Virus record (IMG/VR): IMGVR_UViG_2703718817_000003
Length of the DNA: 64,000 nt
DNA from: a virus
Taxonomy: Duplodnaviria > Heunggongvirae > Uroviricota > Caudoviricetes
Direction: 5' to 3' (one strand)
A program made the position numbers and the translations under genes. The notes beneath the pieces were generated by a model. The model was not told the DNA's origin, did not search any database, and was given only the letters and a program-made list of their open reading frames with translations. This document shows, in pieces, positions 9,911-47,217 of the stretch (its first letter is position 1; the number at the start of each line of letters is the position of its first letter).

Positions 9911-11119
9911 ATGAGTCAGCAAGTAGAATCATCAAGCCTGGAGATCATCTCAACCGCAATTGAAACGCTGCGGACACAAATCGCGCTTATACAGAAACGA
10001 AATCCGGGCGATGACCTGTCAAAGCGACTGCATGAGAGCGTCATTGCCACTACAGATAACCTGGTGGCGGAAATCAACCAGCTCCTTGATGATGGGGCAG
10101 TTGATTACAATAAGCTGGTGGATCAGTTTGAGGAGTATCAGCAAGCCGTTAATGATGGCTTGATCCGTTTTTCTCAAGTCACTGGTGTATCAGCGACAGT
10201 TGAAAGCCTGGGGGATGCAGTTAATCAATTTGCCGCGAATATGCGTAATGAGATCGGCAATCTGGAGGCGCGTCTTGAGCAGGCAAATACACTGCGCAAA
10301 TCTGCTGAAGTCGATTTGAGTCGTTACAAAAAAGACTATCCGCCAAGCCTGACAAAACGACTGGATGTTGCGGAGAAAGATAACCGCACGCTGAAAAGAG
10401 AGCGTCGCGAACTAAAAGAGCGTTTAACCAAGCTAAATCAGCAATGCGTTGAGTATCAAGGCGAACTCGTCACACTGCGTAAAAAGTTAGCAGCGGCGCA
10501 GAGCATTATTGAAACATTGAAACGAGAGTGCTCAGAGCTTGGTCATGATCTGAATCGCGCCTGTGGCATGGGGCAAAGGCCAGAGACATTCCCGCTAATG
10601 TATGACGGAAGAGAAGCTATTGCCTATATCCATGAGTTTCCGCATGGTCTGGTCGCGGAGACTGGGCAACGTGGCGAAGCGTTGCTGACGGCAAATTACC
10701 ATCAGCAAATCAGAACCAGCCGCCTGCTGACGATGGATGTGATCCCGTCAGTATGGGGAACGCCGCTTTACTACCGAATTCCTGGCTTCGAAACTGACTG
10801 GAATACCGACATAGACGAATGTCTGGCAGATAAAATTATGGCGTACCTTGAAACGGATTTTCCACGCTTGCATCGCCGGATTATGGACTCTAAGGATGCA
10901 CCGATCGACGAATTGAAAATGCGTCCAGAGACGTTGGAGGCAATCAAGCAGACTGAGTTTGATACAGTGTTCAGTGTGGCCTGCATTCCAAGCAGCTTTC
11001 ATGAAAGCATTCCGTTCATGCAGGGCGATCGCCGTCAGGAAATAATTGATGCTTGCCGGGTATGGGCGAACGAGTGGGATAAGAAGAACGGTGGAGTTGA
11101 AAATCTTTACGGGAAATAA
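9911..11119 (+). CDS. hypothetical protein, N-terminal coiled coil
   Basis: 402 aa ORF with good ATG context (gaaagggaacaaacATG); heptad-rich N-terminal half; bracketed by operator-like motifs. Confidence 0.55.
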   Translation: MSQQVESSSLEIISTAIETLRTQIALIQKRNPGDDLSKRLHESVIATTDNLVAEINQLLDDGAVDYNKLVDQFEEYQQAVNDGLIRFSQVTGVSATVESLGDAVNQFAANMRNEIGNLEARLEQANTLRKSAEVDLSRYKKDYPPSLTKRLDVAEKDNRTLKRERRELKERLTKLNQQCVEYQGELVTLRKKLAAAQSIIETLKRECSELGHDLNRACGMGQRPETFPLMYDGREAIAYIHEFPHGLVAETGQRGEALLTANYHQQIRTSRLLTMDVIPSVWGTPLYYRIPGFETDWNTDIDECLADKIMAYLETDFPRLHRRIMDSKDAPIDELKMRPETLEAIKQTEFDTVFSVACIPSSFHESIPFMQGDRRQEIIDACRVWANEWDKKNGGVENLYGK

Positions 11120-11120
11120 T

Positions 11121-11152
11121 ATGTTAGAAAATTAAAATTGTTTTTCTAACAT
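11121..11152. promoter_or_regulatory. Inverted pair of operator-like motifs (ATGTTAGAAAATTAA ... TTTTCTAACAT)
   Basis: Near-perfect palindrome directly after the 9911-11119 stop. Confidence 0.5.
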
Positions 11153-11980
11153 ATTGATTATGGGGTTAACTTAACATAGAATTTTTCGTGCTGGTGGGGA
11201 GCTTCCCATGTCGCTTGCGGGTTTGATAGTCACTTCATTGTCTTTCCCCACCAGCATCAAACAAATTTAAGTGTTAGAAAGTAAATTTTAAGGTAAGGGA
11301 AAGCTCCGGCACCGTGCAAATACATGCCCGGCAGGTTTAGTGCGTAAAGTGGCTTCAGCGAGAGCATTTTACGGAGTAAACGACAGTGACTTGAGCCACG
11401 GAAGGTCTTTTTATGGTGTTCATTGATGATGATCTGGCAGTGAGTATGTTAAGTGGGCCAGGCTGCATCGGGTCATCATCAGTGCACATCCTCAACGTTA
11501 AGGAGGCGCAGAGTTGGGTTTTCCTCTTATTTTGCTGACTCTGAGTCTCCTTAACGTTGCGGTAATGCACCTATGCGGATGTGGCCTTGCATTGTGTCTT
11601 GAAAGAATGGGGTAAGGCCGGGGATATCCCCAGGGGGAGGCACCCCCGCTGCAACGAACAGCCACAGACGGCAGTCGAGTGATGGAAACGTGCAAAGACT
11701 TTAAACCTCGTTACGGCTGGCGTGGCAAACGCGACAACCGAGACAGAGCGGTGACGGGCGGAGAGAGAGCCGCTTCAAGATAAAAGCCGACTATGGATTC
11801 CTTTCTGCGGGCCTTTGAAAGTGAATCTTGCTCAGGCAGTCGGCTTTTATGTTGATACGTAGCGATAGCCGCGACAGGCGCGGCGGCAAGTATGGCGGGG
11901 TAGTGACTCCTTCCCCCTTATGACGCCGATTTGCCAGGCTGGCCATACGCCTAAGTGGCAATACCGCGAGTGGGATATTT

Positions 11981-12006
11981 GCCCACCTTCGGGTGGGTGT
12001 TTTTTC
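11981..12006 (+). terminator. Rho-independent terminator
   Basis: CCCACC-TTCG-GGTGGG stem followed by TGTTTTTTC, inside an ORF-free region. Confidence 0.55.
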
Positions 12007-12466
12007 AGGGTTTTCGTCATGGTTAGCGACTTTGCGGCGGTTTAGAACCCGACCATTAAAGTAAATGCAAACGATGATCTGATGATGGTAGCGGCCTAAG
12101 AAGCCTGACGCCACGGGGTATGAGTCGTCCCCCGTCAAAAAATCGACCGCAGAGTGTCCCCGTCTGTGTATTAGGGAACGGGGAGGCATAACAGGCAAGG
12201 GCGCTGGTGTGATTAACCAGATGAATGAGAAGGGTCAGGTCTTTCTGGTCAGCGCCCTTACCTGTTACGTCCTTACCGCGTAACAGCCATTGGTTAATGG
12301 CTTTCTGGAATAATGTCTTGTAACGGGTATATCCCGTCATGCTGAAGGCGCTAATCACGCTGGAAGCCAGGGTTATGCATCCCCTGTTACCGAATTGCAG
12401 CCAGGGCGCGGTGCGCCGAAAAGCATACGGAGGTGGAAGCCCTCGCCGGAGACGTACCCGGCAAGT

Positions 12467-12543
12467 GATGGTGTAGCTCAGTAGGATAGAGCAGCAGCCT
12501 TCTAAGCTGTCGGTCGGTGGTTCGAATCCACCCACCATCGCCA
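12467..12543 (+). tRNA. tRNA-Arg (anticodon UCU)
   Basis: Manual cloverleaf: acceptor GATGGTG/CACCATC, D-arm GCTC...GAGC, anticodon loop CTTCTAA, T-arm GGTGG-TTCGAAT-CCACC, encoded CCA. Confidence 0.8.
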
Positions 12544-12548
12544 ATTTA

Positions 12549-12635
12549 GGGGAGTTAGTCCGTAGGGGTAGCGGGGTAGACTGTAAATCTACTGTCATTG
12601 CGACTCGGATGGTTCGACTCCATCACTCCCCACCA
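12549..12635 (+). tRNA. tRNA-Tyr (anticodon GUA), class II with long variable arm; D-arm atypical
   Basis: Acceptor GGGGAGT/ACTCCCC, anticodon arm GTAGA-CTGTAAA-TCTAC, variable arm TGTCATTGCGACTCG, T-arm GATGG-TTCGACT-CCATC, CCA encoded. Confidence 0.6.
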
Positions 12636-12639
12636 AATT

Positions 12640-12715
12640 GCCGGTTTAGCTCAGTTGGTAGAGCAGTCGCTTTGTAAGCGAATGGTCAGCGGTTCGATCC
12701 CGTTAACCGGCACCA
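12640..12715 (+). tRNA. tRNA-Thr (anticodon UGU)
   Basis: Acceptor GCCGGTT/AACCGGC, D-arm GCTC-AGTTGGTA-GAGC, anticodon loop TTTGTAA, T-loop TTCGATC, CCA encoded. Confidence 0.85.
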
Positions 12716-12903
12716 ACACAACAGGTAAGGGTATTTTGCGACATCGGAGATCGCCGAGCTTGGCAGAGGGTTCGAATCCCTACGAAGTACCCTTGCCGTT
12801 GTGATGAATGCACAGGCTGATGTGCCGCAACTACAGTAGTGCGCGCTTTGCGGGGCTTGCTACAACCCTGTGTCGGAGTTCAGCACCGACCATCACAATC
12901 ACT

Positions 12904-12990
12904 GGAGAGTAGGGAGCATGGTGCTCAAGCGGTCTTGAAAACCGTCCCATTGCGCAAGCGATGATGGTTCGATTCCATTACTCTCCGCCA
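12904..12990 (+). tRNA. tRNA-Ser-like (anticodon UGA), class II; D-arm noncanonical
   Basis: Acceptor GGAGAGT/ACTCTCC plus GCCA; anticodon arm GCGGT-CTTGAAA-ACCGT; long variable region; T-arm GATGG-TTCGATT-CCATT. Confidence 0.55.
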
Positions 12991-13419
12991 GCGCAACGTT
13001 AAGAGTATTTGGCTAATTAAGCGAATGCCGGAAGCAGAACCGGATCACCAAATGCGTACAGGCGTCATCGCCGCCCAGTCAGCCAAATGCTCTTACCATT
13101 GCGGTGAATGCGGCTAAGCGCACGCGGAACAGTTAAAACAGTAAAGGTGGTCTTTTTACTGGCGTAACGAGCATCCATAAGTGATCCGGCGTTAATTGTT
13201 AACTGGTTAACGTCACCGGGAGGCACCCGGCACCGCAACCTAACAGCAATGGCGTTTTGTCTTAAAAGGTGGCTGCAAGTGATGGATTTTTGGGCGTTTG
13301 CCGATAAAAACCCGGAGTGGACATTATTGTTTCTGCTGGTGGTTGCATACGGGGTAGAGCAAGCGGCAAAAGCCTTACGCGGTTCTGGCAAAAAGCGTAA
13401 GCGTAATTAACAGTAATCT

Positions 13420-13495
13420 GGCCCTTTAGCTCAGTGGTTAGAGCGGGCGACTCATAATCGCACGGTCACCGGTTCAAGTCCGGTAGGGGCCACCA
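13420..13495 (+). tRNA. tRNA-Ile2-like (anticodon CAU, lysidine type) or tRNA-Met
   Basis: GGCCCTTTAGCTCAGTGGTTAGAGC...CTCATAA...GGTTCAAGTCCGG...AGGGGCCACCA; closely resembles enterobacterial ileX from memory. Confidence 0.75.
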
Positions 13496-13949
13496 CATTT
13501 GGTTGTAACACGGCGTATGGCACATGCGTCGTTAGCGGTCTGGTGTAGCTGTTAGGTGCCTTACTAACACTGCATGGGCACACCAGGTAGCCGGAATGTG
13601 CAAGTCACCGTTGGAGGGATAGCGGACTCAGGGACTCACCATCCTGGCGATTCGGTGTGACAGCCGGAATAGCACGGCGTACAACAGGAAAAGGTGTTTA
13701 ATTAATACGAGCGCCTTCTCCGTTGTGGTAATTGCGGCTATGCGCTCGTGACGAAGCCATTTTCATTCACTACGTTCTGATAAGTGTCGTCGCCGGGCGT
13801 GGCTAACCTGGCAGGTGGAGGCACCACCGCCACAACTCCTTTCAATTCATCATATAGCCGCTCAGGCTGTAACCCTTAATTAATACGAAGTTACGACGTC
13901 ACTACCGGTTCAGCCGGGGGATAGTCGCGCGTGTAAAAAAGGAGACGTT

Positions 13950-14525
13950 ATGTTAACGGCGAACGATAACGCGTATTCAGAAGATGATCTCGTTTTGAGT
14001 GACTTTATAGGGCGACGAGAATGCTGGACGCAAAAGCGCGAGGAGCTTTATGCAGCGTTAGTTCGTAAAGGCGTCAACATCGAAACCGCACAGAACGGTG
14101 ATATGACAGTGGTAAGTGTTGGACTGCACGGCGTAAGCGTGTCAGCAATCAATCATGAGCCGTACATTGCGTTATCCGAGTCAATGGTAAGGTTAGTTAA
14201 GTTCCTGAAGTACACAGAAGCGAATAACGTGCTCATCGCCAAAAAGAACATCCCGTTCTCATCGGCCTTTTACTGGATGATGAAGGGGCTTGATGCCCGG
14301 CGAACATCATGGCCTAAAGGGAGCTATATATCGATGCTCCGTGGCAGTGTTGGCAGCAAAGAAAAGCTCGTCGAATTCCTGCCGGAAGAGGCATTCGATA
14401 TTGTTGAAGGTTGTGATGTGATGGTTATGCCTCGCCTGGTAATGATGAATGGGGATTTACAGGCACAGACAGACTGGTTTGCAACTGGTGTTGATATTAT
14501 CGCTACTGACTGGGAGGTTTTTTGA
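13950..14525 (+). CDS. hypothetical protein with C-terminal DUF2829-like domain
   Basis: 191 aa; C-terminal FSSAFYWMMKGLDARRTSWPKGSY...TDWFATGVDIIATDWEVF has the W...RR..W...DW-x-V pattern. Confidence 0.5.
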   Translation: MLTANDNAYSEDDLVLSDFIGRRECWTQKREELYAALVRKGVNIETAQNGDMTVVSVGLHGVSVSAINHEPYIALSESMVRLVKFLKYTEANNVLIAKKNIPFSSAFYWMMKGLDARRTSWPKGSYISMLRGSVGSKEKLVEFLPEEAFDIVEGCDVMVMPRLVMMNGDLQAQTDWFATGVDIIATDWEVF

Positions 14526-40662: not shown

Positions 40663-40763
40663 TAAAACACACAGTTGCGCCCTGGCATTATCGTGGGGTA
40701 TATTTCTACGGCACCTTAGAAAAACGGGTGCCGGGATTGGAACCCCGGATAATGTCAAAGGCG

Positions 40764-40796
40764 ACACAGACGCCGAAAGCGTCTTTTTTTGTGTCA
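40764..40796 (+). terminator. Rho-independent terminator
   Basis: GACACAGACGC-CGAAA-GCGTCTTTTTTTGTGTC. Confidence 0.6.
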
Positions 40797-40975
40797 TGCC
40801 ATCGCGCAGCCATACGTAGCGTTTAGCTCAGAGATCAATGGTAGTGCTGGCTGGGCTGCCGAAAGGCAGGCCGGTTCCCTTTGACGCCGGTAGTTCCAAC
40901 CCAGTCAGTGCTACCGCCATTGAGATTGGAACCTCACGCGGTAGCTCCTTAACTTAGTCAAAGGAGGCTGCCAAT

Positions 40976-46986: not shown

Positions 46987-47187
46987 GTGTTTGCAAGGAC
47001 ATGAATAGTACACTATTATGATGGTGAAGGAATGGTACATGTTGAACCAAACCTTCGAGGATGCAGCAGACTGAAGAAATTCAGACATCCCGCAACCAGC
47101 TATCATAACAGGTCAAACCAGTTGTGATACTTGGTCAAGGCAAAGTCCGGTAATGGCGTTCTGAATACCAGAAAATAATTTCTGGCG

Positions 47188-47217
47188 AAGCCCACCTTAA
47201 GGTGGGCTTTGTTATTT
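47188..47217. terminator. Bidirectional Rho-independent terminator
   Basis: AAGCCCACC-TTAA-GGTGGGCTT with T-rich tracts on both sides, between convergent genes. Confidence 0.6.

What the first reader, a model, noticed from the sequence alone, without database searches (positions are those of the whole stretch)
12467..13495. tRNA cluster with noncanonical members and extra tRNA-like fragments
Five tRNA genes are called (Arg-UCU, Tyr-GUA, Thr-UGU, Ser-UGA, Ile2/Met-CAU); P1 is recalled to carry only three. The Tyr- and Ser-like genes have atypical D-arms. Two further elements look tRNA-derived but incomplete: 12722-12797 (10-bp acceptor-like stem GGTAAGGGTA/TACCCTTGCC with a TTCGAAT T-loop, no anticodon arm) and 12791-12897 (acceptor-like TGTGATG/CATCACA with internal hairpins).
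Basis: partly seen in the sequence, partly recalled or inferred. Interest (0 to 1): 0.45.

Follow-up and report, generated by a model that had tools for sequence, protein, structure and literature searches.

The report
Phage tRNA array with conserved RNA modules
The five tRNA genes are real and already annotated in related plasmids, but the two "broken tRNA" pieces between them are one conserved folded RNA module shared by many unrelated gut-bacterial phages and absent from RNA family databases, and a tmRNA-style tag template lies just upstream.

Summary
ARAGORN calls Arg-UCU, Tyr-GUA, Thr-UGU, Ser-UGA and CAU tRNAs at the stated coordinates, and P1 carries only Asn, Thr and Ile. The window is a P1/D6-like phage-plasmid. 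RefSeq already annotates the same five-tRNA layout in E. coli plasmids that are 97.8% identical.

- **Codon match:** AGA, AUA, ACA and UCA are 2.2 to 3.7 times commoner in the window's ORFs than in a K-12 sample.
- **Ser tRNA:** it is selenocysteine/allo-tRNA-like (A8, compact D arm) and fits the published phage (8/4) tRNA-Ser class.
- **Arg tRNA:** it is a P1 tRNA-Asn body carrying an Arg D-loop and anticodon arm.

They are not decayed tRNA genes. Together they form one module: a long leader hairpin with a T-arm-like insert (12717-12803) and a tRNA-shaped core (12798-12899). At least 120 IMG/VR phage contigs carry it, and 42 distinct versions show abundant compensatory base changes. No Rfam family covers it. 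The nearest known relative by architecture is the prophage sRNA STnc100.

The locus holds further copies of the module. Upstream lies a conserved ten-codon tmRNA-like tag frame (ANDDLMMVAA) with no recognisable tRNA-like partner. The module's function is inferred, not shown.

The parts
12467..12543 (+). tRNA-Arg(UCU). A chimera: the acceptor stem, D stem and most of the T arm match the P1/D6 tRNA-Asn(GUU). The D loop (which gains A20) and the anticodon arm are of the Arg type seen in rV5 and KP591P3.
   Evidence: ARAGORN; Rfam 72.1 bits; alignment A5
12549..12635 (+). tRNA-Tyr(GUA), class II with a long variable arm and an extended connector before the D stem. Closest non-P1 relative is the rV5 trnY.
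   Evidence: ARAGORN; Rfam 43.8 bits (gathering score 29); 82.5% identity to rV5 Arg-Tyr; annotated tRNA-Tyr in RefSeq
12640..12715 (+). tRNA-Thr(UGU), the P1 trnT homologue.
   Evidence: ARAGORN; Rfam 67.2 bits
12717..12803 (+). P0 pairs CACAAC 12717-12722 with GTTGTG 12798-12803. A 12723 is bulged. The P1 stem pairs 12724-12736 with 12785-12797. The apical insert carries the T-arm-like hairpin AGGGTTCGAATCCCT.
   Evidence: fold z = -4.2; 10 of 13 P1 pairs show compensatory changes; model R1 scores 56 bits; T-arm-like hairpin in 13 of 66 inserts against 0.075 expected
The closing helix P2 pairs 12798-12806 with 12891-12899. Then come an AAU linker, hairpin P3 (12810-12825, loop GGCUGA), a variable insert, and hairpin P4 (12872-12890, loop AGUUCAGCA) that abuts P2. 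The two loops are complementary (GCUGA/UCAGC).
   Evidence: 96.3% of cells paired against 31-53% when the partners are slid; 0 of 500 shuffles reach the observed value
12904..12990 (+). tRNA-Ser(UGA), Sec/allo-tRNA-like. It has A8, a compact D arm, a 6-bp variable stem with a GCAA loop, G73 and an encoded CCA. It is compatible with an 8/4 acceptor/T-stem branch.
   Evidence: 100% identical in P7, 90% in rV5; D6 record note
12993..13103 (+). Second leader hairpin of the same type (GTTAAGAGTATTTGGCT 12998-13014 pairs with AGCCAAATGCTCTTACC 13081-13097). Its 5' part is the flank shared with the rV5 trnS.
   Evidence: read from the sequence; weak R1 hit 12991-13123; rV5 flank homology
13098..13239 (+). 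STnc100-like unit with the same architecture as the core. Closing helix UUGCGGUG/CACCGCAA, AAU linker, and a final hairpin CCGGG-AGGCA-CCCGG that abuts the closing helix.
   Evidence: Rfam RF02076 40.8 bits, E 4.5e-7, below the gathering score of 47
13420..13495 (+). tRNA with CAU anticodon, homologue of P1 trnI (Ile2, ileX-like). RefSeq annotates it as tRNA-Ile.
13679..13837 (+). Third, diverged copy of the module (leader hairpin plus core). It follows a 170-nt domain (13506-13678) that is homologous to a non-coding region of epsilon15-like phages.
   Evidence: R1 31 bits, E 2e-5; BUCT554 homology
12186..12270 (+). Leader-type hairpin without a core (AACAGGCAAGGGCGCTG pairs with CAGCGCCCTTACCTGTT).
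   Evidence: R1 21.4 bits, E 0.003
12012..12195 (+). tmRNA message-like unit. The tag frame runs from GCA at 12067 to TAA at 12097-12099 and encodes ANDDLMMVAA. The stop codon sits in a hairpin loop.
   Evidence: Rfam tmRNA_permuted 24.1 bits, E 0.014; eight tag variants all exactly ten codons long; fold and covariation; ARAGORN resume-codon consensus

Best explanation
The region is a mosaic array of RNA cassettes in the long non-coding stretch (about 11.1-13.95 kb) of a P1/D6-like phage-plasmid. This stretch is the counterpart of the repressor-controlled leader of the ban operon in P1.

(1) Five functional tRNA genes supply decoders for AGA, AUA, ACA and UCA, codons that the phage uses 2.2 to 3.7 times more often than the host, plus a Tyr tRNA. 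They were assembled by exchange with other phage tRNA clusters. Arg is a P1 tRNA-Asn body with an Arg D-loop and anticodon arm. Tyr and Ser, with Ser's 3' flank, are of the rV5 type. Ser belongs to the Sec-like (8/4) class of phage tRNA-Ser.

(2) The two fragments are one conserved non-tRNA module. It has a leader hairpin of about 20 bp whose apex often carries a T-arm-like hairpin. Next comes a tRNA-shaped core: a closing helix, a D-like hairpin and a T-like hairpin with complementary loops.

(3) Inferred mechanism. The array is transcribed as one precursor. The leader hairpin sequesters the first six bases of the core (CACAAC pairs with GUUGUG). I propose it serves as a handle for RNase III or RNase P type processing. 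After cleavage, the same six bases would re-pair with the core's 3' end (GUUGUGRUG with CAYCACAAY), releasing a compact, stable, tRNA-shaped small RNA of the STnc100/PasD kind whose variable inserts carry its specificity.

Steps (1) and (2) are shown by computation. Step (3) is inference.
For: **tRNAs.** RefSeq annotates the same layout. Codon enrichment over a K-12 sample is AGA x2.2, ATA x3.7, ACA x3.4 and TCA x2.2, with p from 2e-4 to 1e-17.

**Mosaicism.** The rV5 cluster is Arg-Tyr-Ser-Thr-Met-Pro, and the window's Arg-Tyr and Ser-plus-flank segments are 82-83% identical to it. The 91 P1-like contigs show the slot pattern Asn or Arg, optional Tyr, Thr, module, optional Ser, CAU.

**Module.** It sits just behind tRNA-Thr in P1-like contigs, in 30 versions that differ only by point changes. 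It also occurs in BUCT554, KP591P3, HK629 and at least 120 IMG/VR loci that fall into 74 clusters. Pair counts on 42 distinct versions give 96.3% of cells paired and 14 pairs with changes on both sides, with 0 of 500 shuffles reaching the observed value; slid controls pair at 31-53%.

**P0 against P2.** P0 extends P1 at 95% paired, and it uses the same GUUGUG that P2 uses.

**Leader hairpins.** They also precede the tmRNA-like unit in other phages, with flanks that covary. T-arm-like hairpins lie 2-4 nt from the 3' strand in 10 of the 13 inserts that carry one (13 of 66 inserts; 0.075 expected by shuffling).

**Copies and relatives.** Model R1 finds copies only inside this locus of the 64-kb window. 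An STnc100-like copy with the same architecture lies in the same locus.

**Transcription signals.** A promoter-like TTGATT-N17-TAGAAT overlaps the end of an inverted repeat at 11112-11180. P1 annotates a C1-controlled Pban promoter upstream of its own tRNAs.
Against: - There are no expression or processing data for the window's element. The role of RNase III or RNase P is inferred from shape alone.
- The simple promoter scan found nothing between 11500 and 14500, and no P1-type C1 operator consensus is present.
- The 8/4 fold of Ser cannot be told apart from a 7/5 fold with a G.U pair, because positions 8, 60 and 76 never vary.
- The complementary loops show no covariation, partly because the retrieval pattern fixed one of them.
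- Rfam's STnc100 model does not score the core, in this window or in three other phages.
- Only 13 of 114 non-P1 loci have a tRNA within 1.5 kb, so the module is not a dedicated tRNA-processing signal.
- The alignment used for the pair counts had its variable inserts replaced by N, and its members were retrieved with a 27-nt pattern, which limits the visible variation in P2 and P3.
Confidence: 0.6

Rival explanations
1. The fragments are decaying tRNA pseudogenes or recombination scars left by tRNA gene turnover.
For: Fragment 1 has a canonical T-loop hairpin placed, as in a tRNA, just 5' of the 3' strand of a long terminal stem. The KP591P3 version gets a faint tRNA-Sec score of 23 bits. Homology breakpoints with P1 and D6 fall at the module edges.
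Against: ARAGORN and Rfam's tRNA model reject both fragments. The sequence is nearly invariant in 91 P1-like contigs. It is conserved in unrelated phages, with compensatory rather than random substitutions. Most copies have no tRNA nearby.
Confidence: 0.07
2. The module acts at the DNA level as a cassette boundary or recombination site, in the manner of an integron attC site or lambdoid boundary sequences. It would promote the shuffling of tRNAs and morons between phages.
For: Direct repeats of CACAAC mark both ends, and the 3' end of one module doubles as the 5' end of the next in tandem arrays. Mosaic breakpoints coincide with the conserved cores. Different payloads sit between identical conserved flanks. 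In lambdoid phages it lies in the moron-insertion region after pR'.
Against: No dedicated recombinase is linked to it. Compensatory changes preserve pairing in four separate helices, and the loops are conserved. That is more than homologous recombination needs and more typical of an RNA. In epsilon15-like phages it has a promoter-like sequence and terminator hairpins of its own, read from the sequence.
Confidence: 0.12
3. The tRNA-shaped core is a tRNA mimic used in counter-defence or host takeover. It could be a decoy for anticodon nucleases or for tRNA-binding enzymes. Alternatively, it could work with the upstream tag template as an unorthodox phage trans-translation system.
For: The core has a tRNA-like layout: a closing helix, a 3-nt linker, a D-like and a T-like hairpin with complementary loops, and the T-like hairpin stacked on the closing helix. 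Its inserts are hypervariable. An anti-Thoeris Tad2 gene lies 110 bp downstream of the locus. The tag frame always has a core downstream in loci long enough to show it. The Tyr tRNA is not explained by codon usage.
Against: There is no G3.U70 pair, no conserved CCA and no conserved anticodon-like loop. ARAGORN finds no tmRNA at default or 90% thresholds, and its tRNA-domain assignments at 80% disagree between loci. Most cores occur without a tag.
Confidence: 0.15
4. The stretch encodes proteins on the minus strand, as the P1 record annotates (plp, upl).
For: The P1 record places plp and upl over the homologous sequence. BUCT554 and other records annotate hypothetical proteins there.
Against: In the window the longest minus-strand ORFs over 12716-12903 are 36 and 39 aa. 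The annotated P1 ORFs span three tandem RNA modules. Variation is of the paired-stem type and the inserts vary freely in length. RefSeq leaves the region unannotated in E. coli genomes.
Confidence: 0.04

Closest known systems
P1 / P7 / D6 tRNA region (trnA-trnT ... trnI within the ban operon leader)
   Same: Same genomic position and the same Thr and CAU tRNAs. The Ser tRNA is 100% identical to an unannotated P7 sequence and 98.9% identical to the D6 tRNA-Ser. The same five-gene layout is annotated in RefSeq plasmids that are 97.8% identical.
   Different: P1 has Asn-Thr ... Ile only. Here Asn is converted to Arg, and Tyr and Ser are added. P1's plp/upl/tciA segment is replaced.
(8/4) tRNA-Ser / allo-tRNA class (Mukai et al. 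2017, PMC5389517)
   Same: It scores close to the tRNA-Sec model and has a long D stem with a short loop, a long variable arm, G73 and a serine anticodon. The paper reports this class in bacteriophages.
   Different: The 8/4 split itself could not be proved here, because the deciding positions never vary. I found no mention of coliphages or P1-like elements in the paper's main text, and its supplement was not available.
STnc100 (Rfam RF02076) and PasD prophage sRNAs
   Same: The locus contains an STnc100-like copy at 13098-13239. It has the same closing helix (UGGUG/CACCA type), AAU linker, first hairpin and last hairpin abutting the closing helix as fragment 2. Both kinds occur in lambdoid prophage moron regions near TerB/tciA-type genes (preprint 10.64898/2026.05.13.724894).
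   Different: RF02076 gives no match with E up to 10 to 12798-12899, and none with E up to 1 to the BUCT554, KP591P3 or HK629 copies. Here the core is followed by a tRNA rather than a terminator. The preprint, as far as read here, does not describe the leader hairpin.
tmRNA (SsrA), including permuted two-piece forms
   Same: The upstream unit has a GCA resume codon, an A-rich leader, a ten-codon frame starting ANDD/ANEE and ending in hydrophobic residues plus AA or VA, and a stop codon in a hairpin loop. E. coli's tag is ANDENYALAA.
   Different: It has no recognisable tRNA-like domain (no G3.U70 pair, no T arm followed by ACCA). It falls below the Rfam and ARAGORN thresholds and has no BLAST similarity to E. 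coli ssrA.
RNase P processing of the P1/P7 C4 antisense RNA, and the stable species 1 and 2 RNAs of the T4 tRNA cluster (both recalled from my own knowledge, not tested here)
   Same: These are phage non-tRNA RNAs that are co-transcribed with, or shaped like, tRNAs and are matured by tRNA-processing enzymes. That is the working model proposed for this module.
   Different: There is no sequence relationship. The C4 RNA of this window lies elsewhere, at 40834-40921.

Membership tests
Canonical tRNA (Rfam RF00005 / ARAGORN cloverleaf) | Passes the curated covariance-model threshold and is called with an anticodon | tested here: met
   Arg 72.1, Thr 67.2, CAU 66.7 and Tyr 43.8 bits against a gathering score of 29. 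All five are called by ARAGORN. Ser is not reported by RF00005 at the gathering score.
Canonical tRNA, applied to the two fragments (12722-12797 and 12791-12897) | Cloverleaf with an anticodon arm, detectable by a scanner or covariance model | tested here: not met
   No ARAGORN call. No RF00005 match with E up to 10.
(8/4) tRNA-Ser / allo-tRNA | 12-bp acceptor branch split as 8 + 4 instead of 7 + 5 | tested here: inconclusive
   The A8:U pair is possible in 8 of 9 homologues and the variable-stem C:G pair is kept in 9 of 9, but none of these positions varies. A 7/5 fold with a G.U pair is equally allowed.
(8/4) tRNA-Ser / allo-tRNA | Sec-like D arm (long stem, roughly four-base loop), long variable arm, G73 or U73, Ser anticodon for the tRNA-Ser subgroup | tested here: met
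   The D stem of 4-6 bp covaries (GAGC/GCUC, GCUC/GAGC, GCUA/UAGC). The loop is AUGG-like. The variable stem is 6 bp, the discriminator is G and the anticodon is UGA.
tRNA-Sec (RF01852) | Score at or above the gathering score, and a UCA anticodon | tested here: not met
   44.6 bits, below 47. The anticodon is UGA.
STnc100 (RF02076) | Match to the curated covariance model | tested here: not met
   No match to 12798-12899 with E up to 10. None in L004, L107 or L108 with E up to 1. The sister copy at 13100-13237 reaches 40.8 bits, below the gathering score of 47, with E 4.5e-7.
tmRNA | Tag reading frame with a resume codon and a stop codon in a hairpin | tested here: met
   Eight variants are all ten codons long and start at GCA. 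ARAGORN recognises the resume consensus. The hairpin covaries.
tmRNA | tRNA-like domain with a G3.U70 acceptor stem, a T arm and 3' ACCA; detection by ARAGORN or Rfam at curated thresholds | tested here: not met
   No tmRNA at default, 95% or 90% thresholds, and inconsistent domains at 80%. RF04321 gives 24.1 bits, below 47. The core's closing helix has no G.U pair at position 3.
AgvB / AsxR anti-sRNAs (RF02702, RF02703) and YrlA (RF02553) | Match to the curated covariance model | tested here: not met
   No AgvB or AsxR match. The YrlA hit of 16.8 bits (gathering score 69) overlaps real tRNAs only.

The most novel reading that the evidence does not exclude
P1-family phage-plasmids and several other enterobacterial phages encode their own trans-translation-like device or a mimic of one. 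Its parts would be a tmRNA-style tag template (ANDDLMMVAA and relatives) and a separately folded tRNA-shaped RNA. Both would be released from a common precursor by a conserved leader hairpin. The device would retag, or block the tagging of, stalled-ribosome products during phage development. More broadly, the leader hairpin plus tRNA-shaped core would be a new, widespread class of modular phage RNA with exchangeable specificity inserts.
Probability: 0.15. Interest if true: 0.85.

Novelty: new variant of a known kind. Interest (0 to 1): 0.6.

Why it matters
The tRNA genes themselves are ordinary and already annotated. What matters is what lies between and before them.

- **An undescribed RNA module.** It is strongly covarying, is present in at least 120 viral contigs from at least four unrelated phage types, is missing from Rfam 15, and is unannotated in RefSeq E. 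coli genomes.
- **Implications for P1.** Part of the classic P1 map (plp, upl) may be annotated as protein over tandem RNA modules.
- **A wider RNA family.** The module gives the poorly understood STnc100/PasD prophage sRNAs a broader structural family and a candidate maturation signal.
- **A testable lead.** It exposes a tmRNA-like tag template in a well-studied model phage family. Whether phages manipulate ribosome rescue then becomes directly testable.
- **tRNA evolution.** The Asn-to-Arg chimera and the Sec-like Ser tRNA are clean natural examples of change in tRNA identity and architecture in a tractable system.

Tried and rejected
- **GcvB mimic or sponge.** The module's CACAACA matches the published GcvB target consensus, and GUUGUGAUG occurs in GcvB R1. 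However, 8-10-mers shared with or complementary to K-12 gcvB are no more frequent in the locus than in the rest of the window, apart from a single complementary 10-mer at 12714. Kept only as a remark.
- **Direct homology to host ssrA.** BLAST of E. coli ssrA against the window, P1, D6, KP591P3, BUCT554 and HK629 found nothing meaningful.
- **Known RNA families.** Sensitive cmscan runs over the locus and three other phages returned only tRNAs, the STnc100-like copy and faint tmRNA and DicF hits.
- **Genome-wide pattern scan for fragment 1.** In one genome per species there were only two hits, one P1-like and one unrelated. A first fixed-spacing pattern found nothing.
- **Literature.** No paper in the library contains the tag peptides or the core motif. 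Papers on P1/D6-like plasmids only list the tRNAs. The P1vir hfq RNA-seq preprint has no processing data. The supplement of the allo-tRNA paper is not held.
- **P1 C1 operator consensus.** Absent from the window.
- **N-utilisation (boxA/boxB) reading of the core.** Dropped, because the boxA-like bases covary as part of stem P1.
- **A tag frame hidden in the core's variable insert.** No consistent frame across versions.
Full report
**What the window is.** The 1.4-kb stretch around the finding matches P1, P7, D6 and related phage-plasmids at 85-92% identity in pieces. It matches E. coli plasmids of about 90 kb end to end at 97.8%. In those RefSeq records the same five genes are already annotated: tRNA-Arg, Tyr, Thr, Ser and Ile. 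A Thoeris anti-defence Tad2 gene follows them.

The P1 reference record carries only trnA (Asn), trnT (Thr) and trnI (Ile2, CAU). They lie downstream of the C1-controlled ban promoter and a "dicF-like" region. D6 has Asn, Thr and a Ser whose record note says tRNAscan-SE did not call the amino acid.

**The observation.** ARAGORN calls Arg-tct 12467-12543, Tyr-gta 12549-12635, Thr-tgt 12640-12715, Ser-tga 12904-12990 and CAU 13420-13495, all on the + strand. Rfam's tRNA model passes for four of them. Ser instead scores 44.6 bits on the selenocysteine tRNA model, just under its threshold of 47.

**The unusual tRNAs.**
- **Ser.** It has A rather than U at position 8 and a 4-6 bp D stem with a loop of about four bases. 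It also has a 6-bp variable stem, G73 and an encoded CCA. Its homologues come from rV5-like, T5-like and T4-like Klebsiella phages and from Acinetobacter, Pseudomonas and Streptomyces phages. Among them the D stem covaries and the A8:U pair of an eight-pair acceptor stem is always possible. The deciding positions never vary, so 8/4 and 7/5 folds cannot be separated (ARAGORN draws 7/5). Mukai et al. described exactly this kind of Sec-like (8/4) tRNA-Ser in bacteriophages (PMC5389517).
- **Tyr.** It is a class II tRNA with an extended connector before the D stem.
- **Arg.** It is a chimera. Its acceptor stem and D stem are identical to those of the P1/D6 tRNA-Asn, and its T stem differs by one compensated pair. 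Its D loop (now with A20) and its anticodon arm are of the Arg type found in rV5 and KP591P3.

**Origin and use of the tRNAs.** Phage rV5 has the cluster Arg-Tyr-Ser-Thr-Met-Pro. The window's Arg-Tyr block is 82.5% identical to it, and the Ser gene with 83 nt of 3' flank is 83.3% identical. Across 91 P1-like IMG/VR contigs the array is modular: Asn or Arg, optional Tyr, Thr, fragment 1, optional Ser, then CAU.

I compared 42 window ORFs with 45 ORFs from a 50-kb K-12 segment. The phage genes use AGA 2.2 times, ATA 3.7 times, ACA 3.4 times and TCA 2.2 times more often (p from 2e-4 to 1e-17). Tyr codons do not differ. Four of the five tRNAs therefore fit classical codon compensation. Tyr does not.

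**The two fragments are one module.** Fragment 1 folds far better than shuffled sequence (z = -4.2). Fragment 2 alone does not (z = -1.8). Comparison settles the matter.

- *Linkage in P1-like contigs.* Fragment 1 directly follows tRNA-Thr wherever the flank is visible. It occurs in 30 versions that differ only by point changes.
- *Other phages.* An 84%-identical copy in Enterobacter phage BUCT554 (epsilon15-like, no tRNAs) keeps the long stem through three double substitutions. Klebsiella phage KP591P3 and lambdoid HK629 carry the same conserved flanks around different inserts.
With loci already held, this gave 114 distinct sequences in 74 clusters.

**Anatomy of the module.**
- P0 pairs CACAAC with GUUGUG, with a bulged A.
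- A 13-bp stem, P1, carries a variable apical insert.
- P2 (GUUGUGRUG pairing with CAYCACAAY) closes a junction.
- The junction holds an AAU linker, hairpin P3 (loop GGCUGA), a second variable insert, and hairpin P4 (loop AGAUCAGCA) that abuts P2 directly.

On 42 distinct versions, with the inserts masked, 96.3% of cells are paired against 31-53% when the partners are slid. Ten of the 13 P1 pairs show changes on both sides, and P2, P3 and P4 each show at least one such pair. None of 500 shuffles reaches the observed values. P0 is 95% paired and uses the same GUUGUG as P2. The two loops are complementary in 95.7% of cells but show no covariation.

Thirteen of 66 distinct apical inserts contain a canonical T-arm-like hairpin, against 0.075 expected. 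In ten of them it lies 2-4 nt from the 3' strand, where a tRNA's T arm sits. The element is still not a broken gene.

**Copies in the window.** A covariance model built from the alignment finds the module only in this locus: 12716 onward (56 bits), 13679-13780 (31 bits, E 2e-5), and a hairpin-only copy at 12186-12288 (21 bits).

Reading the sequence shows a fourth copy. A leader hairpin at 12993-13103 is followed by the STnc100-like unit at 13098-13239 (Rfam 40.8 bits). That unit has the same closing helix, AAU linker and terminal hairpin.

P1 itself carries three tandem modules where its record places plp and upl on the minus strand. In the window the longest minus-strand ORFs there are 36 and 39 aa.

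**What is known about it.**
- No Rfam 15 family matches the module in the window or in three other phages.
- RefSeq leaves it unannotated in 340 E. coli genomes.
- No paper in the library contains the motif.
- The nearest described relatives are STnc100 and PasD. A 2026 preprint groups these Hfq-associated prophage sRNAs of lambdoid moron regions by structure. Membership by the Rfam model is not met.
- Only 13 of 114 non-P1 loci have a tRNA within 1.5 kb. The module is a general enterobacterial phage RNA that is sometimes embedded in tRNA clusters.

**The upstream tag template.** A weak Rfam hit to permuted tmRNA (24.1 bits, E 0.014) at 11957-12099 covers GCA AAC GAU GAU CUG AUG AUG GUA GCG GCC UAA, which encodes ANDDLMMVAA.

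The same frame is always ten codons long, starts at GCA and has no AUG. It recurs as ANDDLMMAAA, ANDDLMLMAA, ANDDVVLMAA, ANEEMYLAVA, ANEEVYLAVA, ANDEQFLAVA and ANDDQFLAVA in about 100 loci, including P1, D6 and KP591P3-like phages. The E. coli tag is ANDENYALAA.

The stop codon lies in a covarying hairpin, and ARAGORN recognises the resume consensus. No convincing tRNA-like domain was found. In several phages this unit too is preceded by a leader hairpin whose lower stem pairs with the unit's first bases.

**Mechanism.** Three things are shown.
- The tRNAs are real.
- The module is a selected fold.
- The leader hairpin precedes two different downstream units, and its lower stem competes with the core's closing helix.

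The rest is inferred. I propose one repressor-controlled precursor. A promoter-like TTGATT-N17-TAGAAT overlaps the end of an inverted repeat at 11112-11180, and P1 has Pban in the equivalent place. The leader hairpin would act as a handle for RNase III or RNase P type cleavage. The core would then refold into a compact tRNA-shaped small RNA whose inserts give it specificity.

The rivals are a DNA-level cassette boundary, a tRNA decoy or trans-translation device, a pseudogene, and a minus-strand protein. They are weighed in their own sections.

**Verdict.** The cluster as such is already known. The Ser tRNA is a member of a known unusual class. The two fragments open onto an undescribed, widespread, well-supported RNA module related in architecture to STnc100, and onto a tmRNA-like tag unit. 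Both deserve experimental follow-up.

Noticed in passing
window 12012-12195 (tag frame 12067-12099): A tmRNA message-like unit encodes ANDDLMMVAA. It is conserved, with eight tag variants of exactly ten codons, across P1-like and Klebsiella/Escherichia siphophage contigs. No tRNA-like domain was found, and no paper mentions these tags.
   Followed up: partly
window 12467-12543 compared with L002 1645-1720 and L003 1656-1728: The tRNA-Arg(UCU) is a P1/D6 tRNA-Asn body (identical acceptor and D stems) with an Arg-type D loop and anticodon arm. This looks like a natural identity switch by exchange of an internal segment.
   Followed up: partly
L002 (P1) 1790-2400, i.e. P1 69493-70103: P1's annotated minus-strand genes plp and upl lie over three tandem copies of the RNA module, so they may not be protein-coding.
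   Followed up: partly
window 12993-13239: A further leader hairpin is followed by an STnc100-like unit (Rfam 40.8 bits, gathering score 47). Its 5' part is the flank shared with the trnS of rV5-like phages.
   Followed up: partly
window 13506-13837: A 170-nt conserved domain downstream of the CAU tRNA is homologous to non-coding DNA of epsilon15-like phages (BUCT554; epsilon15 annotates an RNase III site nearby). A diverged third module copy follows it.
   Followed up: partly
window 11112-11180: An inverted repeat of about 18 bp (AATATGTTAGAAAA...TTTTTCTAACATATT) is followed, with a few bases of overlap, by a promoter-like TTGATT-N17-TAGAAT just after the pmgS-like ORF. This is a candidate repressor-controlled promoter for the whole RNA array.
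   Followed up: no
window 11980-12009: A terminator-like hairpin with a T run corresponds to the end of P1's annotated "dicF-like region". Rfam's DicF model does not match it.
   Followed up: no
window 13950-14525: A 191-aa ORF immediately downstream occupies the position of the gene that RefSeq annotates as Thoeris anti-defence Tad2 in the 97.8%-identical plasmid NZ_LR890273.
   Followed up: no
window 13249-13410: A small ORF (43-53 aa, hydrophobic then basic) sits just before the CAU tRNA, at the position of P1 tciB/tciC. RefSeq calls it a hypothetical protein.
   Followed up: no
window 40711-40921 and 47025-47210: Rfam gathering-level hits elsewhere in the window: isrK (62.7 bits), C4 antisense RNA (77.1 bits) and sroH (113 bits). 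The first two fit a P1-type immunity region.
   Followed up: no
window 12714-12723: CAACACAACA at the junction between tRNA-Thr and the module is a 10-mer complementary to the GcvB R1 seed. CACAACA is the published GcvB target consensus and is conserved at module starts. There is no overall enrichment of GcvB-related k-mers in the locus.
   Followed up: partly
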